Assembly (NCBI GenBank): GCA_976551045.1
Contig: CDPCPM010000022.1
Span: forward strand, 20,894,001 to 20,958,000
Direction of reading: 5' to 3'
DNA length: 64,000 nucleotides
From: Glaucostegus cemiculus
Taxonomy: Eukaryota
Position numbers and translations under genes: made by a program. Numbering within the stretch: the first letter of the stretch is position 1; each line of letters opens with the position of its first letter. This document shows, piece after piece, positions 17,621 to 63,489 of this stretch. The notes beneath the pieces are model-generated. The model ran no database searches, was not told the DNA's origin, and saw only the letters and a program-made list of their open reading frames with translations.

Positions 17621-17660
17621 ATGAGCGAAGGCAAGACCCAAAGCAAGAAATATCCCAAAA
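17621..17660 (+). CDS. USP coding exon 1 (MSEGKTQSKKYPK; exon starts 17569)
   Basis: Acceptor tttaatttcag|17569; ATG with A at -3; donor A|gtaagc is phase 1, matching the next exon. Confidence 0.65.
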
Positions 17661-32600: not shown

Positions 32601-35600
32601 ATTCCCGCAAACTTTAGGCCAAAGCAGATTAGCAAGAGATGTGAAGGAGACTGGTATGTGTTGTTTGCTTCTCAGTCTCAGGTTATTTTTGGAATATTTG
32701 GTGTATAGGCCCAACAATCATTAAATAATCAATAGCTTGTTGGAAAATTCTTTCAAATGTGGACAATTTAATCTATTGTTATTGTCCATTGAATAAACTT
32801 TGGTTAATATTTGCATAACAATCCAAAGACGCAGCAATAGCACAAGGCAATCAAGAATCTAGGTCATTGGGATCAGCGCTTCCTGTAAGTTCTAGAGGCT
32901 AGGATTCAGAAGGAGTGCAGAAACCAGAGAAGGATGGGACTCATCAGGAAAGGAGTGTGGATAATTGCTCATAAAATGAGGCTTGCAGTTGGTTTTACAT
33001 ATGAGCAAATTTTATTCATGTACTTCTGGATCTATTCTATAGGCAGTCCCTTAGGGTTGAGGAGAATATTCTTCTGCTCCAGTTCTGTAGGTTGTGATGT
33101 TTCTCTTGAGTCCATGTGGGACATGTAGAGTCTTGCACAGTAGAGCAAACCTGATTGACAGGGTGCTAGATATTCAAGGTGCAACATTTCTTACAACCTT
33201 ACCAACCAGTTTCCTTCTGGTTCTAATGAAGAGTCACAATTCTTACAAACTCTATGGATGTTCCTCAGTACCACCATTTTTGGTGTTCAGGGGGAGAAAG
33301 TTTATGAGGAAAATTCATTTTGTCAAAACAAGTTTCAAGAATATCCATGATTTGTTTTCCCTTTGCTCCATATAACGCTGCTGTGAAAGAGCCTAGAGTC
33401 GAGAACCCATTTTAAATTCTTGTCTTGGGCATGCGGACAATGTGACCAATTCTTTGCAGCTAGATCACTATGAGTAGAGTGTTTTAGGGAAATTGGTCTG
33501 GGAGAGATATTGATGTTGGTTCCCTTATCATGACTTGGAGGATATGGCAGAGCTAACATTGGTAGTATCTCTCCAGTACTTTGAGGTGTCCATCCCCAGT
33601 CTCCTTCCCGATCCACTCCATGCAGATAGTTTCGCATTGACTTGCCCCTTCTCAGTGTTCGGCAGTTATTTCCGTCTTCCTAATTCTTCCATTCCCCAAC
33701 CACTAATCCTGATCTGTCTACTCCTTCACCCCTATTCCCCCCATGAATTTGGAAACCTGTAACCCATCATGCAGTTGGTTTACAAACACATGCTCAAAAC
33801 AGCCGTGCCAGATCATAGATGTTCTACTGATTGGAATAGTGGCCAACTTTGAGCCAAGTTGACAGCTTGTTTTAGATCCTGTTATTATAGGGATGGAGTA
33901 GCCAGATCCATGGTGATGGTTGACTGTGAGTGAAGTGTCGACGCTGTGGAATTTCGGAGAGTGATTGATGTTGTTTTATGGGCGCTGCTACTTAATTTGG
34001 TGGGTTTTGCGAGTAATCAGTGCACTGTACGAAGGTGCACATTGTGGCATTACCAGTCTCAAATAAATAAATGGGAGTGTAATGAATGATAAGCCCTGGC
34101 ACATTAAATGTCACTCAATCCAAAACCAGAGGCCTGAAGTTTCTGGGCAAGTCATCTCTCTGTTCGTACCTCTGACTTATTCCAGCAACCTTTGGGCCAA
34201 ATCAGATTTTCAAGAGATGTGAATGAGACTGTAATGTGTTTGATTGCTTCTCAGTCTCAGGTTATTTTTGGAATATTTGGTGTATAGGCCCAACAATTAT
34301 TAAGTAATGAATAGCTTGTTGGAATATTCTTCCAAATGTAGACAATTTTGAACTATTGTTATTATCCATTGAATAAAGCTTGGTTAATATTTTCACAGGA
34401 TTCCAATGACACAGCAATAGCACAAGGAATTGAAGAATGTAATTCTTTGGGCTCAGTGCATTCCAAAGGTTCTGGAGGCGAGGGTTTGGGTGAACTGCAG
34501 GAAACAGAGAGAAATGGGAGACCTCAGGTAAGGAAGGCGAAAAATGGCTCATAAAATGAGGCTTGTAGTTGGTTATGCAGATGAGGAATTTTCATACATG
34601 TACATCTTGATCTTCTTTTCCTAGGCAGTCCATTAGGGTTGAGGAGAACATTCCTCTGCTCCAGTTCTGTAGGTTGTGAGGTGTCCCTCGTGGGACATGT
34701 AGAGCCTTGCACAGAAGAGCAAACATGATTGGCAGTGGGGTCAATATTCAAGGCGCTGCATTTCTTCCAATGTTACCAATCAGCTTCCTTCTAGTTCTGG
34801 TGAAGATACAGTACTCTTACAACCTCTATGGATGTTCCTTAGTACCACCATTTTTGGTGTTCAAGGGGTGAGAGAACATGAGGATAATTCATTTACTCAA
34901 AACAAATTTTGAGATGATCCATGAGATCGATTCCCTTTGCTCCAGTTAGTGCTGCTGTGAAGGAGCCTGGTGTCAAGGACCCATTTTAGAGTCTTGTGCA
35001 GGGCATGCGGACAATTTGACAAGCTCTTTGCAGCCAGCTTTCCTTCATTTGAGACTTTTGGGAAAATTGTCCAGGGAGAGATGTTGATGTTGGTTTCCTT
35101 ATCATGATTTGGAGGATATGGCAGAGCTGACATTTGGTAGTTTCTATCCAATGCTGTGCAATGTCTAGCCGCACTATCCTCTCCGATCCACTGCATGCAG
35201 ATAGTTCCGCATTGACTTGCCCCTTCTCAGTGTTCCACACTTGTTTCTTTATTCTTTCGTTCCCCAACCACTTTTCCTGGTCCCTCTACTCCTTCAACCC
35301 TACTTCCCTCATGAATTTGGAAGCCTGTGGCCCATCATGCAGTTGGTTCACAAACACATGATCAAAATTAGTCGTGCCTGATCATAGATGTTCTACTGAT
35401 TGGAATAGTGGCCAACTTTGAGCCGAGTTGACAGCTGGTTTTGGATCCTGTTGTTATAGGGATGGTTTTGCGTGATCCTTGGTGATGGCCGACTGTGAGT
35501 GAAGGGTCGAAACTGTGGAATCTGTTAGAGTGATTGATGTTGTTTTATGGGTGCTGCTACTTAATTTGGTGGGTTTTGCGAGTTATCACTGCACTGTATG

Positions 35601-38600
35601 AAGGTGCAGATTGTGGCATTACCAGTCTCAAATAAATGAATGCGAGTTTAATGAATGATAAACACTGACACATTAAATGTCACTCAATCCAAAACCAGAG
35701 GCCTCAAGTTACTGGGCAAGTCATCTCTCTGTTCGAATCTCTGACTTATTCCAGCAACCTTTGGACCAAAGCAGATTTTCAAGAGATGTGAATGAGACTG
35801 TAATGTGTTTGATTGCTTCTCAGTCTCAGGTTATTTGTGGAATATTTGGTGAATAGGCCCAACAATTATCAAGTAAAGAATAGGTTGTTGGAATATTCTT
35901 CCAAATGTAGACAATTTTGAACTATTGTTATTATCCATTGATTAAAGCTTGGTTAATATTTTCACAGGATTCCAATGACACAGCATTAACACAAGGAAAT
36001 GAAAAATGTAATTCTTTGGGCTCAGTGCATTCCAAAGGTCCTGGAGGCGAGGATTTGGGTGAAGTGCAGGAATCAGATAGAAATGGGAGACATCAGGTAA
36101 GGAGTGCGAATAGTGGCTCATAAAATGAGGCTTGCAGTTGGTTATGCAGATGAGCAATTTTCACACATGTACTTCTTGATCTTCTTTTCCTAGGCAGTCC
36201 ATTAGGGTTGAGGAGAACTTTCCTCTGCTTCAGTTCTGTAGGTTGTGAGGTGTCTCTTGTGGGACATGTAGAGCCTTGCACAGTAGAGCAAACATGATAG
36301 GCAGTGGGGTCAATATTCAAGGCGCAGCATTTCTTCCTATGTTACCAATCAGCTTCCTTCTGGTTCTGGTGAAGACACAGAACTCTTACAATGTCTGTGG
36401 ATATTCCTTAGTACCACCATTTTTGGTGTTCATGGGGTGAGAGTACATGAGGATAATTCATTTACTCAAAACAATTTTTGAGATGATCCATGCGATGTTT
36501 TCCCTTTGCTCCAGATAATGGTGCTGTGAAGGAGCCCGGTGTCGAGGACCCATTTTAGAGTCTTGTGTAGGGCAACGGACAATTTGACAAGCTCTTTGCA
36601 GCCAGCTCACCTTCATTTGAGACTTTTGGAAAATTGTCCTGGCAGAGATGTTGATGTTGATTCCCTTATCATGATTTGGAGGATATGGCAGAGCTAACAT
36701 TTGGTAGTATCTCTCCAGTGCTGTGAAGTGTCAATCCGCAGTATCCTCTCCGATCGACTGAATGCAGATTGTTCTGCATTGATTTGCCCCTTCTCAGTGT
36801 TCTGCAGTTGTTTCTTTATTCTTTCATTCCCCAACCACTTTTCCTGGTCCCTCTACTCCTTCAACCCAACTCCCCCCATAAATTTGGAAGCCTGTGCCCA
36901 TAATGCAGTTGGTTCACGAACACATGATCAAAATTAGTCGTGCCTGATCATAGATGATCTACTGATTGGAATAGTGGCCAACTTTGAGCCGAGTTGACAG
37001 CTTGTTTTGGATCCTGTTGTTATAGGGATGGTTTCGCGTGATCCTTGGTGATGGTCGACTGTGAGTGAAGGGTCGAAACTGTGGAATCTGTTAGAGTGAT
37101 TGATGTTGTTTTATGGGTGCTGCTACTTAATTTGGTGGGTTTTGCGAGTTATCACTGCACTGTATGAAGGTGCACATTGTGGCATTACCAGTCTCAAATA
37201 AATGATTGCGAGTTTAATGAATGATAAACACTGACACATTAAATGTCACTCAATCCAAAACCAGAGGCCTCAAGTTACTCGGCAAGTCATCTCTCTGTTC
37301 GTACCTCTGACTTATTCCAGCAACCTTTGGACCAAAGCAGATTTTCAAGAGATGTGAATGAGACTGTAATGTGTTTGATTGCTTCTCAGTCTCCGGTTAT
37401 TTGTGGAATATTTGGTGAATAGGCCCAACAATTATTAAGTAAAGAATAGGTTGTTGGAATATTCTTCCAAATGTAGACAATTTTGAACTATTGTTATTAT
37501 CCATTGATTAAAGCTTGGTTATTATTTTCACAGGATTCCAATGACACAGCATTAACACAAGGAAATGAAAAATGCTCAGTGCATTCCAAAGGTCCTGGAG
37601 GCGAGGATTTGGGTGAAGTGCAGGAATCAGATAGAAATGGGAGACATCAGGTAAGGAGTGCGAATAATGGCTCATAAAATGAGGCTTGCAGTTGGTTATG
37701 CAGATGAGCAATTTTCATACATGTACTTCTTGATCTTCTTTTCCAAGGCAGTCCATTAGGGTTGAGGAGAACTTTCCTTTGCTCCAGTTCTGTAGGTTGT
37801 GAGGTGTCTCTTGTGGGACATGTAGAGCCTTGCACCGTAGAGCAAACATGATAGGCAGTGGGGTCAATATTCAAGGCGCAGCACTTCTTCCTATGTTACC
37901 AATCAGCTTCCTTCTAGTTCTGGTGAAGACACAGAACTCTTACAACCTCTGTGGATGTTCCTTAGTACCACCATTTTTGGTGTTCATGGGGTGAGAGTAC
38001 ATGAGGATAATTCATTTACTCAGAACAATTTTTGAGATGATCCATGCGATGTTTTCCCTTTGCTCCAGGTAATGCTGCTGTGAAGGAGCCCGGTGTCGAG
38101 AACCCATTTTAGAGTCTTGTGCAGGGCATGCGGACAATTTGACAAGCTCTTTTCAGCCAGCTCACCTTCATTTGAGACTTTTGGGAAAATTGTCCTAGGA
38201 GAGATGTTGATGTTGGTTCCCTTATCATGATTTGGAGGATATGGCAGAGCTAACATTTGGTAGTATCTATCCAGTGCTGTGAAGTGTTTATCCTCAGTAT
38301 CCTCTCCGATCCACTCCATGCAGATAGTTCCGCATTGACTTGCCCCTTCTCAGTGTTCTGCAGTTGTTTCTTTATTCTTTCATTCCCCAACCACTTTTCC
38401 TGGTCCCTCTACTCCTTCAACCCTATTCCCCCCATGAATTTGGAAGCCTGTGGCCCATAATGCAGTTGGTTCACGAACACATGATCAAAATTAGTCGTGC
38501 CTGATCATAGATGATCTACTGATTGGAATAGTGGCCAACTTTGAGCCGAGTTGACAGCTTGTTTTGGATCCTGTTGTTATAGGGATGGTTTCACGTGATC

Positions 38601-41600
38601 CTTGGTGATGGCCGACTGTGAGTGAAGGGTCGAAACTGTGGAATCTGTTAGAGTGATTGATGTTGTTTTATGGGTGCTGCTACTTAATTTGGTGGGTTTT
38701 GCGAGTTATCACTGCACTGTATGAAGGTGCAGATTGTGGCATTACCAGTCTCAAATAAATGAATGCGAGTTTAATGAATGATAAACACTGACACATTAAA
38801 TGTCACTCAATCCAAAACCAGAGGCCTCAAGTTACTGGGCAAGTCATCTCTCTGTTCGAATCTCTGACTTATTCCAGCAACCTTTGGACCAAAGCAGATT
38901 TTCAAGAGATGTGAATGAGACTGTAATGTGTTTGATTGCTTCTCAGTCTCAGGTTATTTGTGGAATATTTGGTGTATAGGCCCAACAATTATTAAGTAAA
39001 GAATAGGTTGTTGGAATATTCTTCCAAATGTAGACAATTTTGAACTATTGTTATTATCCATTGATTAAAGCTTGGTTAATATTTTCACAGGATTCCAATG
39101 ACACAGCATTAACACAAGGAAATGAAAAATGTAATTCTTTGGGCTCAGTGCATTCCAAAGGTCCTGGAGGCGAGGATTTGGGTGAAGTGCAGGAATCAGA
39201 TAGAAATGGGAGACATCAGGTAAGGAGTGCGAATAATGGCTCATAAAATGAGGCTTGCAGTTGGTTATGCAGATGAGCAATTTTCATACATGTACTTCTT
39301 GATCTTCTCTTCCAAGGCAGTCCATTAGGGTTGAGGAGAACTTTCCTCTGCTCTAGTTCTGTAGGTTGTGAGGTGTCTCTTGTGGGACATGTAGAGCCTT
39401 GCACCGTAGAGCAAACATGATAGGCAGTGGGGTCAATATTCAAGGCGCAGCACTTCTTCCTATGTTACCAATCAGCTTCCTTCTAGTTCTGGTGAAGACA
39501 CAGAACTCTTACAACCTCTGTGGATGTTCCTTAGTACCACCATTTTTGGTGTTCATGGGGTGAGAGTACATGAGGATAATTCATTTACTCAAAACAATTT
39601 TTGAGATGATCCATGCGATGTTTTCCCTTTGCTCCAGATAATGGTGCTGTGAAGGAGCCCGGTGTCGAGGACCCATTTTAGAGTCTTGTGTAGGGCAACG
39701 GACAATTTGACAAGCTCTTTGCAGCCAGCTCACCTTCATTTGAGACTTTTGGAAAATTGTCCTGGCAGAGATGTTGATGTTGATTCCCTTATCATGATTT
39801 GGAGGATATGGCAGAGCTAACATTTGGTAGTATCTCTCCAGTGCTGTGAAGTGTCAATCCGCAGTATCCTCTCCGTTCCACTGAATGCAGATTGTTCTGC
39901 ATTGATTTGCCCCTTCTCAGTGTTCTGCAGTTGTTTCTTTATTCTTTCATTCCCCAACCACTTTTCCTGGTCCCTCTACTCCTTCAACCCTATTCCCCCC
40001 ATGAATTTGGAAGCCTGTGGCCCATAATGCAGTTGGTTCACGAACACATGATCAAAATTAGTCGTGCCTGATCATAAATGATCTACTGATTGGAATAGTG
40101 GCCAACTTTGAGCCGAGTTGACAGCTTGTTTTGGATCCTGTTGTTATAGGGATGGTTTTGCCTGATCCTTGGTGATGGCGAAGGGTGATGGCGAAGGGTC
40201 GAAACTGTGGAATCTGGGAGAGTGATTGATGTTGTTTTATGGGTGCTGCTACTTAATTTGGTGGGTTTTGCGAGTTATCACTGCACTGTACGAAGGTGCA
40301 CATTGTGGCATTACCAGTCTCAAATAAATGAATGGGAGTGTAATGAATGATAAGCCCTGGCACATTAAATGTCACTCAATCCAAAACCAGAGGCCTGAAG
40401 TTTCTGGGCAAGTCATCTCTCTGTTCGTACCTCTGACTTATTCCAGCAACTTTTGGGCCAAATCAGATTTTCAAGAGATGTGAATGAGACTGTCATGTGT
40501 TTGATTGCTTCTCAGTCTCAGGTTATTTTTGGAATATTTGGTGTATAGGCCCAACAATTATTAAGTAATGAATAGCTTGTTGGAATATTCTTCCAAATGT
40601 AGACAATTTTGAACTATTGTTATTATCTATTGAATAAAGCTTGGTTAATATTTTCACAGGATTCCAATGACACAGCAATAGCACAAGGAATTGAAGAATG
40701 TAATTCTTTGGGCTCAGTGCATTCCAAAGGTTCTGGAGGCGAGGGTTTGGGTGAACTGCAGGAAACAGAGAGAAATGGGAGACCTCAGGTAAGGAAGGCA
40801 AAAAATGGCTCATAAAATGAGGCTTGTAGTTGGTTATGCAGATGAGGAATTTTCATACATGTACATCTTGATCTTCTTTTCCTAGGCAGTCCATTAGGGT
40901 TGAGGAGAACTTTCCTCTGCTCCAGTTCTGTAGGTTGTGAGGTGTCCCTAGTGGGACATGTAGAGCCTTGCACAGTAGAGCAAACATGATTGGCAGTGGG
41001 GTCAATATTCAAGGCGCAGCATTTCTTCCTATGTTACCAATCAGCTTCCTTCTGGTTCTGGTGAAGACACAGAACTCTTACAATGTCTGTGGATATTCCT
41101 TAGTACCACCATTTTTGGTGTTCATGGGGTGAGAGTACATGAGGATAATTCATTTACTCAAAACAATTTTTGAGATGATCCATGCGATGTTTTCCCTTTG
41201 CTCCAGATAATGGTGCTGTGAAGGAGCCCGGTGTCGAGGACCCATTTTAGAGTCTTGTGTAGGGCAACGGACAATTTGACAAGCTCTTTGCAGCCAGCTC
41301 ACCTTCATTTGAGACTTTTGGAAAATTGTCCTGGCAGAGATGTTGATGTTGATTCCCTTATCATGATTTGGAGGATATGGCAGAGCTAACATTTGGTAGT
41401 ATCTCTCCAGTGCTGTGAAGTGTCAATCCGCAGTATCCTCTCCGATCGACTGAATGCAGATTGTTCTGCATTGATTTGCCCCTTCTCAGTGTTCTGCAGT
41501 TGTTTCTTTATTCTTTCATTCCCCAACCACTTTTCCTGGTCCCTCTACTCCTTCAACCCAACTCCCCCCATAAATTTGGAAGCCTGTGCCCATAATGCAG

Positions 41601-44600
41601 TTGGTTCACGAACACATGATCAAAATTAGTCGTGCCTGATCATAGATGATCTACTGATTGGAATAGTGGCCAACTTTGAGCCGAGTTGACAGCTTGTTTT
41701 GGATCCTGTTGTTATAGGGATGGTTTCGCGTGATCCTTGGTGATGGTCGACTGTGAGTGAAGGGTCGAAACTGTGGAATCTGTTAGAGTGATTGATGTTG
41801 TTTTATGGGTGCTGCTACTTAATTTGGTGGGTTTTGCGAGTTATCACTGCACTGTATGAAGGTGCAGATTGTGGCATTACCAGTCTCAAATAAATGAATG
41901 CGAGTTTAATGAATGATAAACACTGACACATTAAATGTCACTCAATCCAAAACCAGAGGCCTCAAGTTACTGGGCAAGTCATCTCTCTGTTCGTACCTCT
42001 GACTTATTCCAGCAACCTTTGGACCAAAGCAGATTTTCAAGAGATGTGAATGAGACTGTAATGTGTTTGATTGCTTCTCAGTCTCCGGTTATTTTTGGAA
42101 TATTTGGTGAATAGGCCCAACAATTATTAAGTAAAGAATAGGTTGTTGGAATATTCTTCCAAATGTAGACAATTTTGAACTATTGTTATTATCCATTGAT
42201 TAAAGCTTGGTTATTATTTTCACAGGATTCCAATGACACAGCATTAACACAAGGAAATGAAAAATGCTCAGTGCATTCCAAAGGTCCTGGAGGCGAGGAT
42301 TTGGGTGAAGTGCAGGAATCAGATAGAAATGGGAGACATCAGGTAAGGAGTGCGAATAATGGCTCATAAAATGAGGCTTGCAGTTGGTTATGCAGATGAG
42401 CAATTTTCATACATGTACTTCTTGATCTTCTTTTCCAAGGCAGTCCATTAGGGTTGAGGAGAACTTTCCTTTGCTCCAGTTCTGTAGGTTGTGAGGTGTC
42501 TCTTGTGGGACATGTAGAGCCTTGCACCGTAGAGCAAACATGATAGGCAGTGGGGTCAATATTCAAGGCGCAGCACTTCTTCCTATGTTACCAATCAGCT
42601 TCCTTCTAGTTCTGGTGAAGACACAGAACTCTTACAACCTCTGTGGATGTTCCTTAGTACCACCATTTTTGGTGTTCATGGGGTGAGAGTACATGAGGAT
42701 AATTCATTTACTCAGAACAATTTTTGAGATGATCCATGCGATGTTTTCCCTTTGCTCCAGGTAATGCTGCTGTGAAGGAGCCCGGTGTCGAGAACCCATT
42801 TTAGAGTCTTGTGCAGGGCATGCGGACAATTTGACAAGCTCTTTTCAGCCAGCTCACCTTCATTTGAGACTTTTGGGAAAATTGTCCTAGGAGAGATGTT
42901 GATGTTGGTTCCCTTATCATGATTTGGAGGATATGGCAGAGCTAACATTTGGTAGTATCTATCCAGTGCTGTGAAGTGTTTATCCTCAGTATCCTCTCCG
43001 ATCCACTCCATGCAGATAGTTCCGCATTGACTTGCCCCTTCTCAGTGTTCTGCAGTTGTTTCTTTATTCTTTCATTCCCCAACCACTTTTCCTGGTCCCT
43101 CTACTCCTTCAACCCTATTCCCCCCATGAATTTGGAAGCCTGTGGCCCATAATGCAGTTGGTTCACGAACACATGATCAAAATTAGTCGTGCCTGATCAT
43201 AGATGATCTACTGATTGGAATAGTGGCCAACTTTGAGCCGAGTTGACAGCTTGTTTTGGATCCTGTTGTTATAGGGATGGTTTCACGTGATCCTTGGTGA
43301 TGGCCGACTGTGAGTGAAGGGTCGAAACTGTGGAATCTGTTAGAGTGATTGATGTTGTTTTATGGGTGCTGCTACTTAATTTGGTGGGTTTTGCGAGTTA
43401 TCACTGCACTGTATGAAGGTGCAGATTGTGGCATTACCAGTCTCAAATAAATGAATGCGAGTTTAATGAATGATAAACACTGACACATTAAATGTCACTC
43501 AATCCAAAACCAGAGGCCTCAAGTTACTGGGCAAGTCATCTCTCTGTTCGAATCTCTGACTTATTCCAGCAACCTTTGGACCAAAGCAGATTTTCAAGAG
43601 ATGTGAATGAGACTGTAATGTGTTTGATTGCTTCTCAGTCTCAGGTTATTTGTGGAATATTTGGTGTATAGGCCCAACAATTATTAAGTAAAGAATAGGT
43701 TGTTGGAATATTCTTCCAAATGTAGACAATTTTGAACTATTGTTATTATCCATTGATTAAAGCTTGGTTAATATTTTCACAGGATTCCAATGACACAGCA
43801 TTAACACAAGGAAATGAAAAATGTAATTCTTTGGGCTCAGTGCATTCCAAAGGTCCTGGAGGCGAGGATTTGGGTGAAGTGCAGGAATCAGATAGAAATG
43901 GGAGACATCAGGTAAGGAGTGCGAATAATGGCTCATAAAATGAGGCTTGCAGTTGGTTATGCAGATGAGCAATTTTCATACATGTACTTCTTGATCTTCT
44001 CTTCCAAGGCAGTCCATTAGGGTTGAGGAGAACTTTCCTCTGCTCTAGTTCTGTAGGTTGTGAGGTGTCTCTTGTGGGACATGTAGAGCCTTGCACCGTA
44101 GAGCAAACATGATAGGCAGTGGGGTCAATATTCAAGGCGCAGCACTTCTTCCTATGTTACCAATCAGCTTCCTTCTAGTTCTGGTGAAGACACAGAACTC
44201 TTACAACCTCTGTGGATGTTCCTTAGTACCACCATTTTTGGTGTTCATGGGGTGAGAGTACATGAGGATAATTCATTTACTCAAAACAATTTTTGAGATG
44301 ATCCATGCGATGTTTTCCCTTTGCTCCAGATAATGGTGCTGTGAAGGAGCCCGGTGTCGAGGACCCATTTTAGAGTCTTGTGTAGGGCAACGGACAATTT
44401 GACAAGCTCTTTGCAGCCAGCTCACCTTCATTTGAGACTTTTGGAAAATTGTCCTGGCAGAGATGTTGATGTTGATTCCCTTATCATGATTTGGAGGATA
44501 TGGCAGAGCTAACATTTGGTAGTATCTCTCCAGTGCTGTGAAGTGTCAATCCGCAGTATCCTCTCCGTTCCACTGAATGCAGATTGTTCTGCATTGATTT

Positions 44601-47600
44601 GCCCCTTCTCAGTGTTCTGCAGTTGTTTCTTTATTCTTTCATTCCCCAACCACTTTTCCTGGTCCCTCTACTCCTTCAACCCTATTCCCCCCATGAATTT
44701 GGAAGCCTGTGGCCCATAATGCAGTTGGTTCACGAACACATGATCAAAATTAGTCGTGCCTGATCATAAATGATCTACTGATTGGAATAGTGGCCAACTT
44801 TGAGCCGAGTTGACAGCTTGTTTTGGATCCTGTTGTTATAGGGATGGTTTTGCCTGATCCTTGGTGATGGCGAAGGGTGATGGCGAAGGGTCGAAACTGT
44901 GGAATCTGGGAGAGTGATTGATGTTGTTTTATGGGTGCTGCTACTTAATTTGGTGGGTTTTGCGAGTTATCACCGCACTGTACGAAGGTGCACATTGTGG
45001 CATTACCAGTCTCAAATAAATGAATGGGAGTGTAATGAATGATAAGCCCTGGCACATTAAATGTCACTCAATCCAAAACCAGAGGCCTGAAGTTTCTGGG
45101 CAAGTCATCTCTCTGTTCGTACCTCTGACTTATTCCAGCAACTTTTGGGCCAAATCAGATTTTCAAGAGATGTGAATGAGACTGTCATGTGTTTGATTGC
45201 TTCTCAGTCTCAGGTTATTTTTGGAATATTTGGTGTATAGGCCCAACAATTATTAAGTAATGAATAGCTTGTTGGAATATTCTTCCAAATGTAGACAATT
45301 TTGAACTATTGTTATTATCTATTGAATAAAGCTTGGTTAATATTTTCACAGGATTCCAATGACACAGCAATAGCACAAGGAATTGAAGAATGTAATTCTT
45401 TGGGCTCAGTGCATTCCAAAGGTTCTGGAGGCGAGGGTTTGGGTGAACTGCAGGAAACAGAGAGAAATGGGAGACCTCAGGTAAGGAAGGCAAAAAATGG
45501 CTCATAAAATGAGGCTTGTAGTTGGTTATGCAGATGAGGAATTTTCATACATGTACATCTTGATCTTCTTTTCCTAGGCAGTCCATTAGGGTTGAGGAGA
45601 ACTTTCCTCTGCTCCAGTTCTGTAGGTTGTGAGGTGTCCCTAGTGAGACATGTAGAGCCTTGCACAGTAGAGCAAACATGATTGGCAGTGGGGTCAATAT
45701 TCAAGGCGCTGCATTTCTTCCAATGTTACCAATCAGCTTCCATCTAGTTCTGGTGAAGATACAGTACTCTTACAACCTCTATGGATGTTCCTTAGTACCA
45801 CCATTTTTGGTGTTCATGGGGTGAGAGAACATGAGGATAATTCATTTACTCAAAACAAATTTTGAGATGATCCATGAGATCGTTTCCCTTTGCTCCAGAT
45901 AGTGCTGCTGTGAAGGAGCCCGGTGTCAAGGACCCATTTTAGAGTCTTGTGTAGGGCATGCGGACAATTTGACAAGCTCTTTGCAGCCAGCTTTCCTTCA
46001 TTTGAGACTTTTGGGAAAATTGTCCAGGGAGAGATGTTGATGTTGGTTTCCTTATGATTTGGAGGATATGGCAGAGCTGACATTTGGTAGTTTCTATCCA
46101 GTGCTGTGCAGTGTCTAGCCGCAGTATCCTCTCCGATCCACTGCATGCAGATAATTCCGCATTGACTTGCCCCTTCTCAGTGTTCCACAGTCGTTTCTTT
46201 ATTCTTTCATTCCCCAACCACTTTTCCTGGTCCCTCTACTCCTTCAAACTACTTCCCCCATGAATTTGGAAGCCTGTGGCCCATCATGCAGTTGGTTCAC
46301 AAACACATGATCAAAATTAGTCGTGCCTGATCATAGATGTTCTACTGATTGGAATAGTGGCCAACTTTGAGCCGAGTTGACAGCTGGTTTTGGATCCTGT
46401 TGTTATAGGGATGGTTTCGCGTGATCCTTGGTGATGGTCGACTGTGAGTGAAGGGTCGAAACTGTGGAATCTGTTAGAGTGATTGATGTTGTTTTATGGG
46501 TGCTGCTACTTAATTTGGTGGGTTTTGCGAGTTATCACTGCACTGTATGAAGGTGCAGATTGTGGCATTACCAGTCTCAAATAAATGAATGCGAGTTTAA
46601 TGAATGATAAACACTGACACATTAAATGTCACTCAATCCAAAACCAGAGGCCTCAAGTTACTGGGCAAGTCATCTCTCTGTTCGTACCTCTGACTTATTC
46701 CAGCAACCTTTGGACCAAAGCAGATTTTCAAGAGATGTGAATGAGACTGTAATGTGTTTGATTGCTTCTCAGTCTCCGGTTATTTGTGGAATATTTGGTG
46801 AATAGGCCCAACAATTATTAAGTAAAGAATAGGTTGTTGGAATATTCTTCCAAATGTAGACAATTTTGAACCATTGTTATTATCCATTGATTAAAGCTTG
46901 GTTATTATTTTCACAGGATTCCAATGACACAGCATTAACACAAGGAAATGAAAAATGTAATTCTTTGGGCTCAGTGCATTCCAAAGGTCCTGGAGGCGAG
47001 GATTTGGGTGAAGTGCAGGAATCAGATAGAAATGGGAGACATCAGGTAAGGAGTGCGAATAATGGCTCATAAAATGAGGCTTGCAGTTGGTTATGCAGAT
47101 GAGCAATTTTCATACATGTACTTCTTGATCTTCTCTTCCAAGGCAGTCCATTAGGGTTGAGGAGAACTTTCCTCTGCTCCAGTTCTGTAGGTTGTGAGGT
47201 GTCTCTTGTGGGACATGTAGAGCCTTGCACCGTAGAGCAAACATGATAGGCAGTGGGGTCAATATTCAAGGCGCAGCATTTCTTCCTATGTTACCAATCA
47301 GCTTCCTTCTAGTTCTGGTGAAGACACAGAACTCTTACAACCTCTGTGGATGTTCCTTAGTACCACCATTTTTGGTGTTCATGGGGTGAGAGTACATGAG
47401 GATAATTCATTTACTCAGAACAATTTTTGAGATGATCCATGCGATGTTTTCCCTTTGCTCCAGGTAATGCTGCTGTGAAGGAGCCCGGTGTCGAGAACCC
47501 ATTTTAGAGTCTTGTGCAGGGCATGCGGACAATTTGACAAGCTCTTTTCAGCCAGCTCACCTTCATTTGAGACTTTTGGGAAAATTGTCCTGGGAGAGAT

Positions 47601-50600
47601 GTTGATGTTGGTTCCCTTATCATGATTTGGAGGATATGGCAGAGCTAACATTTGGTAGTATCTCTCCAGTGCTGTGAAGTGTTTATCCTCAGTATCCTCT
47701 CCGATCCACTCCATGCAGATAGTTCCGCATTGACTTGCCCCTTCTCAGTGTTCTGCAGTTGTTTCTTTATTCTTTCATTCCCCAACCACTTTTCCTGGTC
47801 CCTCTACTCCTTCAACCCTATTCCCCCCATGAATTTGGAAGCCTGTGGCCCATAATGCAGTTGGTTCACGAACACATGATCAAAATTAGTCGTGCCCGAT
47901 CATAGATGATCTACTGATTGGAATAGTGGCCAACTTTGAGCCGAGTTGACAGCTGGTTTTGGATCCTGTTGTTATAGGGATGGTTTCGCGTGATCCTTGG
48001 TGATGGTCGACTGTGAGTGAAGGGTCGAAACTGTGGAATCTGTTAGAGTGATTGATGTTGTTTTATGGGTGCTGCTACTTAATTTGGTGGGTTTTGCGAG
48101 TTATCACTGTACTGTATGAAGGTGCAGATTGTGGCATTACCAGTCTCAAATAAATGAATGCGAGTTTAATGAATGATAAACACTTACACATTAAATGTCA
48201 CTCAATCCAAAACCAGAGGCCTCAAGTTACTGGGCAAGTCATCTCTCTGTTCGTACCTCTGACTTATTCCAGCAACCTTTGGACCAAAGCAGATTTTCAA
48301 GAGATGTGAATGAGACTGTAATGTGTTTGATTGCTTCTCAGTCTCAGGTTATTTGTGGAATATTTGGTGAATAGGCCCAACAATTATTAAGTAAAGAATA
48401 GGTTGTTGGAATATTCTTCCAAATGTAGACAATTTTGAACTATTGTTATTATCCATTGATTAAAGCTTGGTTATTATTTTCACAGGATTCCAATGACACA
48501 GCATTAACACAAGGAAATGAAAAATGTAATTCTTTGTGCTCAGTGCATTCCAAAGGTCCTGGAGGCGAGGATTTGGGTGAAGTGCAGGAATCAGATAGAA
48601 ATGGGAGACATCAGGTAAGGAGTGCGAATAATGGCTCATAAAATGAGGCTTGCAGTTGGTTATGCAGATGAGCAATTTTCATACATGTACTTCTTGATCT
48701 TCTCTTCCAAGGCAGTGCATTAGGGTTGAGGAGAACTTTCCTTTGCTCCAGTTCTGTAGGTTGTGAGGTGTCTCCTGTGGGACATGTAGAGCCTTGCACC
48801 GTAGAGCAAACATGATAGGCAGTGGGGTCAATATTCAAGGCGCAGCATTTCTTCCTATGTTACCAATCAGCTTCCTTCTAGTTCTGGTGAAGACACAGAA
48901 CTCTTACAACCTCTGTGGATGTTCCTTAGTACCACCATTTTTGGTGTTCATGGGGTGAGAGTACATGAGGATAATTCATTTACTCAAAACAATTTTTGAG
49001 ATGATCCATGCGATGTTTTCCCTTTGCTCCAGATTATGGTGCTGTGAAGGAGCCCGGTGTCGAGGACCCATTTTAGAGTCTTGTGTAGGGCAACGGACAA
49101 TTTGACAAGCTCTTTGCAGCCAGCTCACCTTCATTTGAGACTTTTGGAAAATTGTCCTGGCAGAGATGTTGATGTTGATTCCCTTATCATGATTTGGAGG
49201 ATATGGCAGAGCTAACATTTGGTAGTATCTCTCCAGTGCTGTGAAGTGTCAATCCGCAGTATCCTCTCCGATCCACTGAATGCAGATAGTTCTGCATTGA
49301 TTTGCCCCTTCTCAGTGTTCTGCAGTTGTTTCTTTATTCTTTCATTCCCCAACCACTTTTCCTGGTCCCTCTACTCCTTCAACCCAACTCCCCCCATAAA
49401 TTTGGAAGCCTGTGCCCATAATGCAGTTGGTTCACGAACACATGATCAAAATTAGTCGTGCCTGATCATAGATGTTCTACTGATTGGAATAGTGGCCAAC
49501 TTTGAGCCGAGTTGACAGCTTGTTTTGGATCCTGTTGTTATAGGGATGGTTTTGCCTGATCCTTGGTGATTGCGAACGGTGATGGCGAAGGGTAGAAACT
49601 GTGGAATCTGGGAGAGTGATTGATGTTGTTTTATGGGTGCTGCTACTTAATTTGGTGGGTTTGGCGAGTAATCACTGCACTGTACGAAGGTGCACATTGT
49701 GGCATTACCAGTCTCAAATAAATGAATGGGAGTGTAATGAATGATAAGCACTGGCACATTAAATGTCACTCAATCCAAAACCAGAGGCCTGAAGTTTCTG
49801 GGCAAGTCATCTCTCTGTTCGTACCTCTGACTTATTCCAGCAACAATTGGGCCAAATCAGATTTTCTTGAGATGTGAATAAGACTGTAATGTGTTTGATT
49901 GCTTCTCAGTCTCAGGTTATTTTTGGAATATTTGGTGTATAGGCCCAACAATTATTAAGTAATGAATAGCTTGTTGGAATACTCTTACAAATGTAGACAA
50001 TTTTGAACTATTGTTATTATCTATTGAATAAAGCTTGGTTAATATTTTCACAGGATTCCAATGACACAGCAATAGCACAAGGAATTGAAGAATGTAATTC
50101 TTTGGGCTCAGTGCATTCCAAAGGTTCTGGAGGCAAGGGTTTGGGTGAACTGCAGGAAACATCGAGAAATGGGAGACCTCAGGTAAGGAGTGCGAAAAAT
50201 GGCTCATAAAATGAGGCTTACAGTTGGTTATGCAGATGAGGAATTTTCATGCATGTACATCTTGATCTTCTTTTCCTAGGCAGTCCATTAGGGTTGAGGA
50301 GAACTTTCCTCTGCTCCAGTTCTGTAGGTTGTGAGGTGTCCCTAGTGGGGCATGTAGAGCCTTGCACAGTAGAGCAAACATGATTGGCAGTGGGGTCAAT
50401 ATTCAAGGCGCAGCATTTCTTCCTATGTTACCAATCAGCTTCCTTCTAGTTCTGGTGAAGACACAGAACTCTTACAACCTCTGTGGATGTTCCTTAGTAC
50501 CACCATTTTTGGTGTTCATGGGGTGAGAGTACATGAGGATAATTCATTTACTCAAAACAATTTTTGAGATGATCCATGCGATGTTTTCCCTTTGCTCCAG

Positions 50601-53600
50601 ATAATGCTGCTGTGAAGGATCCCGGTGTCGAGGACCGATTTTAGAGTTTTGTGTAGGGCAACGGACAATTTGACAAGCTCTTTGCAGCCAGCTCACCTTC
50701 ATTTGAGACTTTTGGAAAATTGTCCTGGCAGAGATGTTGATGTTGGTTCCCTTATCATGATTTGGAGGATATGGCAGAGCTAACATTTGCTAGTATCTCT
50801 CCAGTGCTGTGAAGCGTCAATCCGCAGTATCCTCTCCGATCCACTGAATGCAGATAGTTCTGCATTGATTTTCCCCTTCTCAGTGTTCTGCAGTTGTTTC
50901 TTTATTCTTTCATTCCCCAACCACTTTTCCTGGTCCCTCTACTCCTTCAACCCAACTCCCCCCATAAATTTGGAAGCCTGTGCCCATAATGCAGTTGGTT
51001 CACGAACACATGATCAAAATTAGTCTTGCCCGATCATAGATGATCTACTGATTGGAATAGTGGCCAACTTTGAGCCGAGTTGACAGCTTGTTTTGGATCC
51101 TGTTGTTATAGGGATGGTTTTGCCTGATCCTTGGTGATGGCGAAGGGTGATGGCGAAGGGTCGAAACTCTGGATTCTGGGAGAGTGATTGATGTTGTTTT
51201 ATGGGTGCTGCTACTTAATTTGGTGGGTTTTGCGAGTAATCAGTGCACTGTACGAAGGTGCACATTGTGGCATTACCAGTCTCAAATAAATGAATGGGAG
51301 TTTAATGAATGATAAGCCCTGGCACATTAAATGTCACTCAATCCAAAACCAGAGACCTGAAGTTTCTGGGCAAGTCATCTCTCTGTTCATACCTCTGACT
51401 TATTCCAGCAACCTTTGGGCCAAAGCAGATTTTCAAGAGATGTGAATGAGACTGTAATGTGTTTGATTGCTTCTCAGTCTCAGGTTATTTTTGGAATATT
51501 TGTTGTATAGGCCCAACAATTACTAAGTAATGAATAGCTTTTTGGAATATTCTTCCAAATGTAGACAATTTTGAACTATTGTTATTATCCATTGAATAAA
51601 GCTTGGTTAATATTTTCACAGGATTCCAATGACACAGCAATAGCACAAGGAATTGAAGAATGTAATTCTTTGGGCTCAGTGCATTCCAAAGGTTCTGGAG
51701 TCAAGGGTTTGGGTGAACTGCAGGAAACAGAGAGAAATGGGAGACCTCAGGTAAGGAAGGCGAAAAATGGCTCATAAAATGATGCTTGTAGTTGGTTATG
51801 TAGATGAGGAATTTTCATACATGTACATCTTGATCTTCTTTTCCTAGGCAGTCCATTAGGGTTGAGGAGAACTTTCCTCTGCTCCAGTTCTGTAGGTTGT
51901 GAGGTGTCCCTAGTGGGACATGTAGAGCCTTGCACAGTAGAGCAAACATGATAGGCAGTGGGGTCAATATTCAAGGCGCTGCATTTCTTCCAATGTTACC
52001 AATCAGCTTCCTTCTAGTTCTGGTGAAGATACAGTACTCTTACAACCTCTATTGATGTTCCTTAGTACCACCATTTTTGGTGTTCATGGGGTGAGAGAAC
52101 ATGAGGATAATTCATTTACTCAAAACAAATTTTGAGATGATCCATGAGATCGTTTCCCTTTGCTCCAGATAGTGCAGCTGTGAAGGAGCCCGGTGTCAAG
52201 GACCCATTTTTGAGTCTTGTGTAGGGCATGCGGACAATTTGACAAGCTCTTTGCAGCCAGCTTTCCTTCATTTGGGACTTTTGGGAAAATTGTCCAGGGA
52301 GTGATGTTGATGTTGGTTTCCTTATCATGATTTGGAGGATATGGCAGAGCTGACATTTGGTAGTTTCTATCCAGTGCTGTGCAGTGTCTAGCCGCACTAT
52401 CCTCTCCGATCCACTGCATGCAGATAGTTCCGCATTGACTTGCCCCTTCTCAGTGTTCCACAGTTGTTTCTTTATTCTTTCATTCCCCAACCACTTTTCC
52501 TGGTCCCTCTACTCCTTCAACCCTACTTCCCCCATGACTTTGGAAGCCTGTGGCCCATCATGCAGTTGGTTCACAAACACATGATCAAAATTCGTCGTGC
52601 CTGATCATAGATGTTCTACTGATTGGAATAGTGGCCAACTTTGAGCCGAGTTGACAGCTGGTTTTGGATCCTGTTGTTATAGGGATGGTTTCGCGTGATC
52701 CTTGGTGATGGCCGACTGTGAGTGAAGGGTCGAAACTGTGGAATCTGTTAGAGTGATTGATGTTGTTTTATGGGTGCTGCTACTTAATTTGGTGGGTTTT
52801 GCGAGTTATCACTGCACTGTACGAAGGTGCAGATTGTGGCATTACCAGTCTCAAATAAATGAATGCGAGTTTAATGAATGATAAACACTGACACATTAAA
52901 TGTCACTCAATCCAAAACCAGAGGCCTCAAGTTACTGGGCAAGTCATCTCTCTGTTCGTACCTCTGACTTATTCCAGCAACCTTTGGACCAAAGCAGATT
53001 TTCAAGAGATGTGAATGAGACTGTAATGTGTTTGATTGCTTCTCAGTCTCAGGTTATTTGTGGAATATTTGGTGAATAGGCCCAACAATTATTAAGTAAA
53101 GAATAGGTTGTTGGAATATTCTTCCAAATGTAGACAATTTTGAACTATTGTTATTATCCATTGATTAAAGCTTGGTTAATATTTTCACAGGATTCCAATG
53201 ACACAGCATTAACACAAGGAAATGAAAAATGTAATTCTTTGGGCTCAGTGCATTCCAAAGGTCCTGGAGGCGAGGATTTGGGTGAAGTGCAGGAATCAGG
53301 TAGAAATGGGAGACATCAGGTAAGGAGTGCGAATAATGGCTCATAAAATGAGGCTTGCAGTTGGTTATGCAGATGAGCAATTTTCATACATGTACTTCTT
53401 GATCTTCTCTTCCAAGGCAGTCCATTAGGGTTGAGGAGAACTTTCCTCTGCTCCAGTTCTGTAGGTTGTGAGGTGTCTCTTGTGGGACATGTAGAGCCTT
53501 GCACCGTAGAGCAAACATGATAGGCAGTGGGGTCAATATTCAAGGCGCAGCATTTCTTCCTATGTTACCAATCAGCTTCCTTCTAGTTCTGGTGAAGACA

Positions 53601-56600
53601 CAGAACTCTTACAACCTCTGTGGATGTTCCTTAGTACCACCATTTTTGGTGTTCATGGGGTGAGAGTACATGAGGATAATTCATTTACTCAAAACAATTT
53701 TTGAGATGATCCATGCGATGTTTTCCCTTTGCTCCAGATTATGGTGCTGTGAAGGAGCCCGGTGTCGAGGACCCATTTTAGAGTCTTGTGTAGGGCAACG
53801 GACAATTTGACAAGCTCTTTGCAGCCAGCTCACCTTCATTTGAGACTTTTGGAAAATTGTCCTGGCAGAGATGTTGATGTTGATTCCCTTATCATGATTT
53901 GGAGGATATGGCAGAGCTAACATTTGGTAGTATCTCTCCAGTGCTGTGAAGTGTCAATCCGCAGTATCCTCTCCGATCCACTGAATGCAGATAGTTCTGC
54001 ATTGATTTGCCCCTTCTCAGTGTTCTGCAGTTGTTTCTTTATTCTTTCATTCCCCAACCACTTTTCCTGGTCCCTCTACTCCTTCAACCCAACTCCCCCC
54101 ATAAATTTGGAAGCCTGTGCCCATAATGCAGTTATTTCACGAACACATGATAAAATTAGTCGTGCCTGATCATAGATGTTCTACTGATTGGAATAGTGGC
54201 CACCTTTGAGCCGAGTTGACAGCTGGTTTTGGATCCTGTTGTTATAGGGATGGTTTCGCGTGATCCTTGGTGATGGCCGACTGTGAGTGAAGGGTCGAAA
54301 CTGTGGAATCTGTTAGAGTGATTGATGTTGTTTTATGGGTGCTGCTACTTAATTTGGTGGGTTTTGGGAGTTAGCACTGCACTGTACTAAGGTGCACATT
54401 GTGGCATTACCAGTCTCAAATAAATGGATGCGAGTTTAATGAATGATAAACACTGACACATTAAATGTCACTCAATCCAAAACCAGAGGCCTCAAGTTAC
54501 TGGGCAAGTCATCTCTCTGTTCGTACCTCTGACTTATTCCAGCAACCTTTGGGCCAAAGCAGATTTTCAAGAGATGTGAATGAGACTGTAATGTGTTTGA
54601 TTGCTTCTCAGTCTCAGGTTATTTTTGGAATATTTGTTGTATAGGCTCAACAATTACTAAGTAATGAATAGCTTGTTGGAATATTCTTCCAAATGTAGAC
54701 AATTTTGAACTATTGTTATTATCCATTGATTAAAGCTTGGTTAATATTTTCACAGGATTCCAATGACACAGTATTAGCACAAGGAATTGAAAAATGTAAT
54801 TCTTTGGGCTCAGTGCATTCCAAAGGTTCTGGAGGCGAGGGTTTGGGTGAACTGCAGGAAACAGCGAGAAGTGGGAGACCTCAGGTAAGGAGTGCGAAAA
54901 ATGGCTCATAAAATGAGGCTTACAGTTGGTTATGCAGATGAGGAATTTTCATACATTTACATCTTGATCTTCTTTTCCTAGGCAGTCCATTAGGGTTGAG
55001 GAGAACTTTCCTCTGCTCCAGTTCTGTAGGTTGTGAGGTGTCCCTAGTGGGACATGTAGAGCCTTGCACAGTACAGCAAACATGATTGGCAGTGGGGTCA
55101 ATATTCAAGGCGCTGCATTTCTTCCAATGTTACCAATCAGCTTCCTTCTTGTTCTGGTGAAGATACAGAACTCTTACAACCTCTATTGATGTTCCTTAGT
55201 ACCACCATTTTTGGTGTTCATGGGGTGAGAGAACATGAGGATAATTCATTTACTCAAAACAAATTTTGAGATGATCCATGAGATCGTTTTCCCTTTGCTC
55301 CAGATAATGCTGCTGTGAAGGAGCCCGGTGTCAAGGTCCCATTTTAGAGTCTTGTGTAGGGCATGCGGACAATTTAACAAGCTCTTTGCAGCCAGCTTTC
55401 CTTCATTTGGGACTTTTGGGAAAATTGTCCAGGGAGAGATGTTGATGTTGGTTTCCTTATCATGATTTGGAGGATATGGCAGAGCTAACATTTGGTAGTA
55501 TCTCTCCAGTGCTGTGAAGTGTTTATCCCCTGTCTCCTCTCCGATCCACTGAATGCAGATAGTTCCGCATTGACTTGCCCCTTCTCAGTGTTCAGCAGTT
55601 GTTTCTTTATTCTTTCATTCCCCAACCACTTTTCCTGGTCCCTCTACTCCTTCAACCCTACTCCCCCCATAAATTTGGAAGCCTTTGGCCCATCATGCAG
55701 TTGGTTCACAAACACATGTTCAAAATTAGTCGTCGCCCGATCATAGATGTTCTACTGATTGGAATAGTGGCCAACTTTGAGCCGAGTTGACAGCTTGTTC
55801 TGGATCCTGTTGTTATAGGGATGGTTTAGCCTGATCCTTGGTGACGGCCGACTGTGAGTGAAGGGTCGAAACTGTGGAATCTGTTAGAGTGACTGATGTT
55901 GTTTTATGGGTGCTGCTACTTAATTAGGTTGGTTTTGGAAGTTATCACTGCACTGTAGTAAGGTGCACATTGTGGCATTACCAGACTCAAATAAATGAAT
56001 GCTAGTTTAATGAATGATAAACCCTGGCACATTAAAATTCATGCAGTCCAAAACCAGAGGCCTCAAGTTACTGGGCAAGTCATCTCTCTGTTCGTTCCTC
56101 CGACTTTTTCCAGCAACCGTCGGGCCAAAGCAGATTTTCAAGAGATGTGAATGAGACTGTAATGATTTTGTTTGCTTCTCAGTTTCAGGTTATTTGTGGA
56201 ATATTTGGTGAATAGGCCCAACAATTATTAAGTAAAGAATAGGTTGTTGGAATACTCTTCCAAATGTAGACAATTTTGAACTATTGTTATTATCCATTGA
56301 TTAAAGCTTGGTTAATATTTTCACAGGATTCCAATGACACAGCATTAACACAAGGAAATGAAAAATGTAATTCTTTGGGCTCAGTGCATTCCAAAGGTCC
56401 TGGAGGCGAGGATTTGGGTGAAGTGCAGGAATCAGATAGAAATGGGAGACCTCAGGTAAGGAGTGCGAATAATGGCTCATAAAATGAGGCTTGCAGTTGG
56501 TTATGCAGATGAGGAATTTTCATACATGTACATCTTGATCTTCTCTTCCTAGGCAGTCCATTAGGGTTGAGGAGAACTTTCCTCTACTCCAGTTCTGTAG

Positions 56601-63157: not shown

Positions 63158-63284
63158 GAATCCAAAGAAACAGCAAAGACATGTAGGAAGCAATGATCTT
63201 TTTCATCTGGACCAGAACTTTCCGTAAGATCTACAAGGTACAAAATTAAAGAAACCAGAAACCACAGAGGGATGGGAGTCCGAG
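63158..63284 (+). pseudogene. Dead copy of the repeat exon
   Basis: Acceptor retained, but TGA at 63194-63196, small deletions, and donor decayed to gttccc. Confidence 0.65.
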
Positions 63285-63489
63285 GTTCCCATCTAGAGAC
63301 CTGAATGGAAGGTGTGGCGCTCAAAATTCAAATTTCACTCCAATAGCCGGGAAAGTTAAAGTTACAAAACTAAATAATGACCTGGAACAAAAAGCTGGAG
63401 ACCCTGAAACTGCCGGATTGCCGCAAAAGAAAAAATCTACCTTGCTAAAGGCTTTTTGCCAAATCTGGCCATCTTTGCCTGTTTTCATA

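What the first reader, a model, noticed from the sequence alone, without database searches (positions are those of the whole stretch)
34399..56455. Differences among the 15 core repeat exons are all non-synonymous
Seen, by manual comparison: types A and B differ at 10 nucleotides and all 10 change the amino acid (I7L, A8T, I11N, E13K, S25P, G29D, L33V, T36S, E37D, P42H). The further variants (A6V, G18C, G27V, E28K, E37A/S, D37G, N39S) are also replacements. That is about 18 changes, none silent and none a stop; the first silent change I found is TTA>TTG in copy 17. If about three quarters of random changes are replacements, 18 of 18 has a probability near 0.6%. Inference: diversifying selection on the repeat peptide, as expected at a host-pathogen interface, although gene conversion complicates the statistics.
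Basis: partly seen in the sequence, partly recalled or inferred. Interest (0 to 1): 0.75.

Follow-up and report, generated by a model that had tools for sequence, protein, structure and literature searches.

The report
Fast-evolving repeat loop in ray deubiquitinase
A 43-codon exon is repeated 18 times inside the catalytic domain of a ray's USP18-like deubiquitinase gene, and every base substitution among its 15 core copies changes the amino acid, likely because moderate selection for new sequence acts together with suppression of silent changes, which would make this predicted floppy loop a candidate immune-conflict surface.

Summary
Observation confirmed: 18 substitution alleles among the 15 core exons, all replacements (P 0.004-0.009; 13 of 2336 intron windows do as well). 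The exons lie in 1.57-kb tandem units between the zinc finger and the His box of a USP47-like ("USP18-like") deubiquitinase of a sawfish-related ray. Older copies, including three in an inverted paralog, test it independently: dN/dS about 2.4-2.6 (LRT p 0.012-0.018; simulation 14-20 of 250). Against distant intron, silent changes run at 0.44x (p 0.01), as described for cassette exons, and replacements at 1.8x on branches of the acidic repeat type (p 0.002, grouping post hoc) but 0.9x in the basic type. A dead-exon control was inconclusive. Verdict: probably moderate, episodic positive selection plus synonymous constraint, reshuffled by conversion. The host-pathogen link is plausible (salmon clade member interferon-induced; ISRE-like motif) but unshown; splicing-in in this species is inferred from relatives.

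The parts
17282..17295 (+). ISRE-like element about 335 bp upstream of the ATG (consensus recalled; function untested)
   Evidence: the 10-mer occurs 7 times in the window against 5.2 expected; the extended form occurs 6 times in 304 kb
17621..17660 (+). USP gene coding exon 1 (ATG), inferred
21644..21740 (+). Cys-box exon (box 1, catalytic Cys)
21922..25125 (+). Exons 3-6 (21922-22064, 23342-23433, 24378-24509, 25030-25125): QQD box and both CxxC zinc-finger motifs
26808..26945 (+). Exon 7, end of box 4 (LKRF motif); 93% identical to Pristis XP_051874681
28435..28476 (+). Exon 8 (42 nt, phase 0), last unique exon before the array
32819..32947 (+). Dead edge copy u0: acceptor and donor lost, in-frame stop
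34399..56455 (+). Core array: 15 units of 1557-1571 bp, each with one 129-nt (copies 3 and 6: 117-nt) phase-0 exon, types A and B and mosaics; acidic, net charge -2 to -5 per copy
36400..45700 (+). Higher-order repeat: 4692-bp three-unit block duplicated almost exactly (approximate bounds)
58150..58278 (+). Diverged intact copy u16 (open frame, AG/GT, weaker pyrimidine tract)
59733..59861 (+). Copy u17, core-like A/B mosaic with the first silent change
61880..62008 (+). Intact copy u18 of the older basic (ESK) type, like the paralog's copies
63159..63286 (+). Dead last copy: stop and 1-nt deletion, shared with the paralog. The His-box exon follows 1.4 kb beyond the window end (L001:1410-1541)

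Best explanation
The units are tandem duplicates of one in-frame exon of a USP47-like (USP18-like) deubiquitinase gene, predicted to encode a disordered loop between box 4 and box 5 of the catalytic domain, and the acidic repeat type has likely evolved under moderate, episodic positive selection while silent sites are held back. Shown: exon anatomy, position between the zinc finger and the His box, omega about 2-2.5, silent rate about half of distant intron, replacement rate about 1.8x on acidic-type branches. Inferred: (1) the copies are spliced in, all or in varying number, giving up to about 1270 aa with 766 aa of repeats; (2) copy number changes by unequal crossing-over and A/B blocks are shuffled by gene conversion; (3) silent sites are constrained by cassette-exon splicing signals; (4) the selective agent is most likely a pathogen protein that binds or cuts this exposed loop of an interferon-induced enzyme. 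Step 4 is the weakest.
For: Core 18:0, P about 0.006. Non-core copies u16, u18, p1-p3 alone: omega 2.44-2.58, p 0.012-0.018 under three frequency models; seven copies without the A/B mosaics: omega 2.3-2.4, p 0.003-0.006, profile interval about 1.3-4.6. Neutral simulations give a median pN/pS of 0.8-1.0 against 1.5-1.6 observed. Against intron more than 150 nt from the exon: n 1.49 (p 0.0017); acidic-type branches 1.81 (p 0.0024), 1.82 without the A/B split (p 0.01). The catalytic exons of the two paralogs show dN 0.025 and dS 0.051 in the N-terminal half. Pristis orthologues are 87-93% identical in the catalytic halves; acidic repeats are 44-60% identical and basic repeats up to 81%. RefSeq models of relatives include the exon in 0-4 copies, and 8 skate proteins of 585-593 aa on 1.8-2.4 kb contigs (inferred spliced transcripts) contain it. 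Repeats have pLDDT mostly under 50 in the Pristis model. A salmon member of the clade is induced by virus and IFN-gamma (PMC12234341, passages). ISRE-like motif upstream.
Against: Inside the 15 core copies replacements do not exceed intron (1.13-1.2x); the A/B split against intron gives p 0.06-0.12. Basic-type branches give n 0.89. With the core stem left out and no grouping, n is 1.28 (p 0.08). The acidic/basic grouping was chosen after seeing per-class estimates. The core stem is fast at silent sites too (s 3.2, n 4.4, omega not above 1, p 0.60), which points to converted flanks. Dead exons give omega 1.59, not distinguishable from 1 or from intact copies. The simulation count test on non-core copies is only 14-20 of 250 under the intron spectrum. 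The disordered tail between paralogs also gives dN 0.111 against dS 0.079. Only 43 codons; fixed trees ignore conversion (u18-p3 far intron 0.08 against near 0.19). Low pLDDT may reflect thin alignment. Splicing-in in this species and any pathogen partner are not shown.
Confidence: 0.55

Rival explanations
1. The peptide evolves neutrally as an unconstrained disordered spacer, and omega above 1 comes from purifying selection on silent sites of a cassette exon (splicing enhancers).
For: Core replacements at 1.13x intron with a silent deficit. Silent rate 0.44x distant intron (p 0.01) and 0.49x in non-core copies (p 0.03). Basic-type n 0.89. Near flanks diverge less than far intron in most deep pairs. 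PMC5678748 (passages) states that Ka/Ks>1 domains with low Ks tend to be alternative exons. The exon is skipped in a Mobula isoform model and is 63% purine.
Against: RNA-level constraint should slow replacement sites too, yet these run at or above the intron rate: 1.49x overall (p 0.0017) and 1.8x on acidic-type branches. Core versus old copies show dN 0.40-0.64 against far intron 0.18-0.28, with dS not depressed.
Confidence: 0.27
2. The exon is translated but drifts neutrally; 18:0 is a post hoc fluke among few independent events, and gene conversion distorts exon-versus-intron comparisons.
For: Only 9 haplotypes; A/B and rare alleles separately give P 0.066 and 0.11. The feature was picked after inspection. 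The core stem has both s and n raised. Dead-exon control inconclusive.
Against: Non-core copies repeat the excess independently (p 0.012-0.018); Fisher combination with the core gives p 0.001-0.004. Mutation spectrum, CpG context and codon frequencies do not produce it.
Confidence: 0.13
3. The core units are intronic satellite DNA whose exon-like segments are skipped, so reading frame is irrelevant.
For: Dead copies at both array edges show that skipping is possible. 0 stops among 18 changes is expected by chance (about 1 expected).
Against: All 18 array copies u1-u18 keep AG/GT and an open frame. The only exon indel is 12 nt, while 8 of the 9 intron indels are not multiples of 3. The silent/replacement asymmetry holds only in the coding frame: 0:18 in frame 0, 4:14 and 5:12 in the other forward frames, though 1:17 in one reverse frame. 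Homologous exons occur in relatives' proteins.
Confidence: 0.05

Closest known systems
Vertebrate 'USP47-like' = proposed 'USP18-like' clade (PMC12234341, passages read); nearest records Pristis pectinata XP_051874057-66 and XP_051874681
   Same: Gene 1 groups with both Pristis proteins (99/96) inside a clade with salmon, sturgeon and newt proteins that excludes the genome's own USP47 (100/100). Pristis models carry the same exon in 1-4 copies.
   Different: 18 intact copies here against at most 4 in any elasmobranch protein inspected; the teleost proteins listed there have no insertion. Interferon induction is reported for salmon only.
USP catalytic-domain insertions between the six boxes (Ye et al. 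2009, seen only as cited in PMC12906285); USP47 structure 8ITN
   Same: The array sits between box 4 and box 5; 8ITN has about 75 unaligned residues at the same place (327-402). Best fold match is the USP47 catalytic domain.
   Different: Here the insertion is built by tandem exon duplication, could reach 766 aa, matches no Pfam family (3 of 3 repeat exons) and evolves with omega above 1.
Concertedly evolving coding repeat arrays such as PRDM9 zinc fingers, abalone VERL and NBPF/Olduvai exon repeats (recalled; for Olduvai I saw search listings only)
   Same: Near-identical copies, higher-order three-unit block, conversion mosaics, replacement excess.
   Different: The repeat is a predicted disordered 43-mer inside an enzyme's catalytic domain; changes are spread over the peptide, with only codon 37 as a weak hotspot (4 of 18, p 0.03, post hoc).
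NLRP1/CARD8 protease tripwires (PMC7857732 and PMC8591160, passages read)
   Same: Fast-evolving, predicted disordered stretch in a likely immune gene; every core copy has Q-G with Ala or Val three residues before Q, and picornavirus 3C prefers Q followed by G or S (PMC8591160).
   Different: No death-domain output, no cleavage shown; a Q-G pair is common by chance in such peptides; basic-type copies lack it.

Membership tests
USP deubiquitinase (Pfam UCH PF00443) | Catalytic Cys (box 1), His (box 5), Asp/Asn (box 6) | tested here: met
   All present in the spliced model; His-box exon is in L001. Pristis orthologue scores 160 bits against a cut-off of 23.9.
USP deubiquitinase (Pfam UCH PF00443) | Two CxxC zinc-binding motifs in boxes 3 and 4; USP fold | tested here: met
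   CLEC and CETC; model of the Pristis orthologue matches USP structures at E 7e-24.
USP deubiquitinase (Pfam UCH PF00443) | Isopeptidase activity with the array included | not testable with these tools
   Needs an activity-probe assay.
USP47-like / USP18-like clade | Groups with fish and tetrapod USP47-like proteins, apart from true USP47 | tested here: met
   100/100; 24 rows, of which 20 were chosen from the proteins held; own USP47, USP7 and gene 3 entered as partial rows.
USP47-like / USP18-like clade | Sister group to USP18 | not tested
   No USP18 sequence was in the tree; taken from PMC12234341.
USP47-like / USP18-like clade | Interferon or virus inducibility | tested here: inconclusive
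   Only an ISRE-like motif at 17282-17295; by my arithmetic the chance in 700 bp is about 1% for the extended form and 10% for the 10-mer.
USP47 proper | Orthology with the genome's canonical USP47 | tested here: not met
   A separate locus on contig C60 has the USP47-type Cys box seen in 8ITN and falls outside the clade.
USP18 proper | Compact protein of little more than the USP domain | tested here: not met
   PMC6240716 (passages) describes USP18 so; this gene has a long insertion and a 160-aa tail.
USP18 proper | IBB-1 pocket, ISG15 specificity, IFNAR2/STAT2 binding | not tested
   IBB-1 residues were not mapped.
Positively selected concerted repeat array | dN/dS above 1 in data not used to spot the pattern | tested here: met
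   omega 2.4-2.6, p 0.012-0.018; weaker by simulation, 14-20 of 250.
Positively selected concerted repeat array | dN above neutral intron rate within the 15 core copies | tested here: not met
   1.13x, CI 0.67-1.79.
Positively selected concerted repeat array | dN above neutral intron rate over the repeat family | tested here: met
   1.49x, p 0.0017; but 1.28x, p 0.08 without the core stem, and 1.8x only on acidic-type branches.
Positively selected concerted repeat array | Dead copies fall to omega 1 | tested here: inconclusive
   omega 1.59; LRT 1.16 against 1 and 0.80 against intact copies.
Viral-protease tripwire or decoy | Cleavage by a pathogen protease with a functional outcome | not testable with these tools
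   Only the Q-G motif is seen.

The most novel reading that the evidence does not exclude
The array is a battery of diversified viral-protease baits spliced into the catalytic domain of an interferon-induced deubiquitinase. Each acidic copy keeps an AxxQ-G site while its flanks vary, so that infection cuts the enzyme between its Cys and His halves, or soaks up the protease, and cassette splicing tunes the number of baits. This would be a tripwire or decoy built by exon amplification in a non-inflammasome enzyme.
Probability: 0.1. Interest if true: 0.85.

Novelty: new variant of a known kind. Interest (0 to 1): 0.5.

Why it matters
It shows an enzyme's catalytic-domain insertion expanding to as much as 60% of the protein by exon duplication. 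The exon is also duplicated in Pristis, skates and several sharks, in a little-studied clade reported as sister to USP18 and interferon-induced in salmon. If selection is confirmed, it names a concrete surface to test for pathogen binding or cleavage in cartilaginous fish. It is also a clean example of 'all non-synonymous' being partly a silent-site deficit, visible only with the intron control.

Tried and rejected
No RNA holder was listed for window:28300-36000; this is no evidence on expression. The four runs laid on one unit were contigs that covered intron as well as exon. X2 shows two exon types (records 8 and 9, 10 and 1 other letters), but X1/X2 may be the assembly's own sample. A protein search with the repeat alone found nothing (3 candidates); Pfam found nothing for 3 of 3 repeat exons. 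Wrong reading frame rejected. Mutation bias, CpG context and codon frequencies rejected as the cause. Near-flank intron as neutral yardstick (n 1.7-1.9) was set aside because it is probably constrained; far intron was used instead. Absence of stops is not evidence (about 1 expected). A candidate exon at L001:4590-4636 was dropped because it breaks the frame and is absent from Pristis proteins. Mosaic copies u14, u15 and u17 and the private variants u10-u13 were left out; GARD, BUSTED, MEME and site models were not run. Earlier scan findings: none. Literature searches that found no description of this array; subscription journals are mostly not covered and no supplements were read (the salmon paper's tree SF1.13 was not seen).
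Full report
What is there. The finding lies in a tandem array of 1557-1571-bp units, 92-98% identical to the first. Each has one 129-nt exon between AG and GT. Upstream on the same strand are eight exons of a USP deubiquitinase (17621-28476): Cys box, QQD box, two CxxC motifs and the LKRF motif. The His-box exon lies 1.4 kb past the window end (L001:1410-1541), followed by two short exons and a tail exon. The model without repeats is an open 503-aa protein. All repeat exons are phase 0, so the array sits in frame between box 4 and box 5 (box scheme as summarised in PMC12906285, passages). Eighteen copies are intact (u1-u15, u16 at 58150, u17 at 59733, u18 at 61880) and the two edge copies are dead. 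Including all of them would give about 1269 aa; that they are spliced in is inferred.

Identity. The best relatives are Pristis pectinata 'USP47-like' proteins (91-93% over exon 7). A tree puts the gene with Pristis inside the vertebrate USP47-like clade and apart from the genome's own USP47 on contig C60. PMC12234341 (passages) calls this clade sister to USP18, proposes the name USP18-like, and reports the salmon gene induced by ISAV and IFN-gamma; I did not test the sister relation. The gene belongs to a four-gene cluster: an inverted paralog about 90-97% identical in DNA with three intact repeat exons (p1-p3), a more distant third gene, and a fourth with stops. The exon is old: one copy in Mobula, Hypanus and several sharks, two related segments in skates, Pristiophorus and Heptranchias, repeated segments differing between isoform models in Mustelus, and 2 and 1-4 copies in the two Pristis genes; one Mobula isoform model skips it. 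These are predicted RefSeq models. Eight of 11 unnamed skate-cluster proteins are 585-593 aa long on contigs of 1.8-2.4 kb, hence probably spliced transcripts, and contain the insertion. In the folded Pristis orthologue the USP core is confident and the repeats are mostly below pLDDT 50 (alignment thin there).

Check of the observation. Confirmed in full: 10 A/B differences and 8 further alleles, all replacements. P(no silent change) is 0.004-0.009 under several mutation models, and 13 of 2336 intron windows match it. There are only 9 haplotypes, and copies 3-5 and 6-8 are a near-exact 4692-bp duplicate.

The intron control. Within the core the exon is not more variable than its introns: 17 of 129 against 232 of 1426 sites (p 0.45). 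Replacements are 18 against 15.9 expected (1.13x, CI 0.67-1.79); silent changes are 0 against 5.0 (P 0.007). The core anomaly is therefore missing silent changes. PMC5678748 (passages) notes that Ka/Ks>1 windows are often alternative exons with low Ks and that the effect extends into flanking intron; it cites Parmley and Hurst 2007, which I did not read.

Independent test with older copies. Pairs between core and old copies give dN 0.40-0.64 and dS 0.26-0.35 for u1. A codon model on the five non-core intact copies alone gives omega 2.44-2.58 (p 0.012-0.018 under three frequency models); with A and B added, omega 2.3-2.4 (p 0.003-0.006, profile interval about 1.3-4.6). A counting statistic against neutral simulation is weaker: 3-6 of 250 for eight copies and 14-20 of 250 for the five non-core copies under the intron spectrum. 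Fitting exon and distant intron (more than 150 nt away) jointly gives replacements at 1.49x (p 0.0017) and silent changes at 0.63x (p 0.09). The branch leading to the core is fast at both site classes (n 4.4, s 3.2; omega not above 1, p 0.60), best read as flanks homogenised by conversion. Without it, silent changes run at 0.44x (p 0.01) and replacements at 1.28x (p 0.08), splitting into 1.81x on branches of the acidic type (p 0.0024; 1.82x, p 0.01, without the A/B split) and 0.89x in the basic type. That split was chosen after seeing the estimates, and the fixed tree ignores conversion. It agrees with proteins: acidic repeats are 44-60% identical to Pristis, basic ones up to 81%, catalytic halves 87-93%, though copy orthology is uncertain. 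Controls against: dead exons give omega 1.59 and cannot be told from 1 or from 2.64; the tail exon between paralogs gives dN 0.111 against dS 0.079. Catalytic exons between paralogs give dN 0.025 against dS 0.051 in the N-terminal half and 3 replacements to 0 silent changes in the His part.

How it most likely works. An ancestral cassette exon encoding a basic, low-complexity loop was duplicated; one lineage of copies turned acidic (net -2 to -5 per core copy against +3 to +6) and was amplified 17-fold by unequal exchange, with conversion making A/B mosaics (u14, u15, u17). Silent sites are slowed about twofold, probably by splicing signals, and replacements on the acidic lineage are sped about 1.8-fold, probably by positive selection. 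With the slowed silent rate about 2.4 silent changes are expected in the core, so 0 has P about 0.09 (my arithmetic). A pathogen as the selective agent is suggested by the clade's induction in salmon and an ISRE-like motif 335 bp upstream (consensus recalled; for PMC6954429 I saw the search listing only). Every core copy has Q-G with Ala or Val at P4, resembling picornavirus 3C sites (Q then G or S per PMC8591160, passages; the P4 preference is recalled). This is a lead only. Selection for charge, length or localisation of the loop would fit equally.

Novelty. USP insertions, cassette exons with low dS and positively selected repeat arrays are all known kinds. Their combination here, an 18-copy exon array inside a USP18-like catalytic domain, was not found in four searches of the open library. 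Other papers read in passages: PMC5381560, PMC6240716, PMC7857732. Verdict: observation confirmed, interpretation partly supported, new variant of a known kind, interest 0.5.

Noticed in passing
G000:C22 about 21,147,000-21,172,000, minus strand (L019-L022): Inverted paralog of the gene with three intact basic-type repeat exons; the acceptor and first bases of its tail exon are deleted in this assembly although the tail frame stays open.
   Followed up: partly
G000:C22 about 21,052,000-21,073,000 (-) and 21,106,000-21,129,000 (+) (L010-L018): Third, more distant USP-like gene with open matched exons and no detectable repeat exon, and a fourth copy with stops that carries a frameshifted repeat exon: a birth-and-death cluster.
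   Followed up: partly
window 5681-6772, minus strand: Single-exon GPCR, best match GPR55 (E 1e-44), then GPR35.
   Followed up: partly
window about 11300-14915, minus strand: GC- and CpG-rich LTR retroelement-like insertion with gag-, RT- and integrase-like frames broken across reading frames; assignment by eye.
   Followed up: no
window 37575-37586 and 42267-42278 (approximate), copies 3 and 6: The same in-frame 12-nt deletion in two exon copies, carried by the 4692-bp duplicated block, which could be a very recent duplication or an assembly expansion.
   Followed up: partly
P0015 (Pristis XP_051874066): A RefSeq isoform model ends just after the repeats and lacks the His box, which would give a catalytically dead protein.
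   Followed up: no
P0008, P0013, P0006, P0026: The single-copy or ancestral exon in sharks and rays has clustered basic residues resembling a nuclear localisation signal (pattern recalled); the amplified core copies lack them.
   Followed up: no
window 16343-16358: A second, tandem ISRE-like run about 1.3 kb upstream of the ATG.
   Followed up: no
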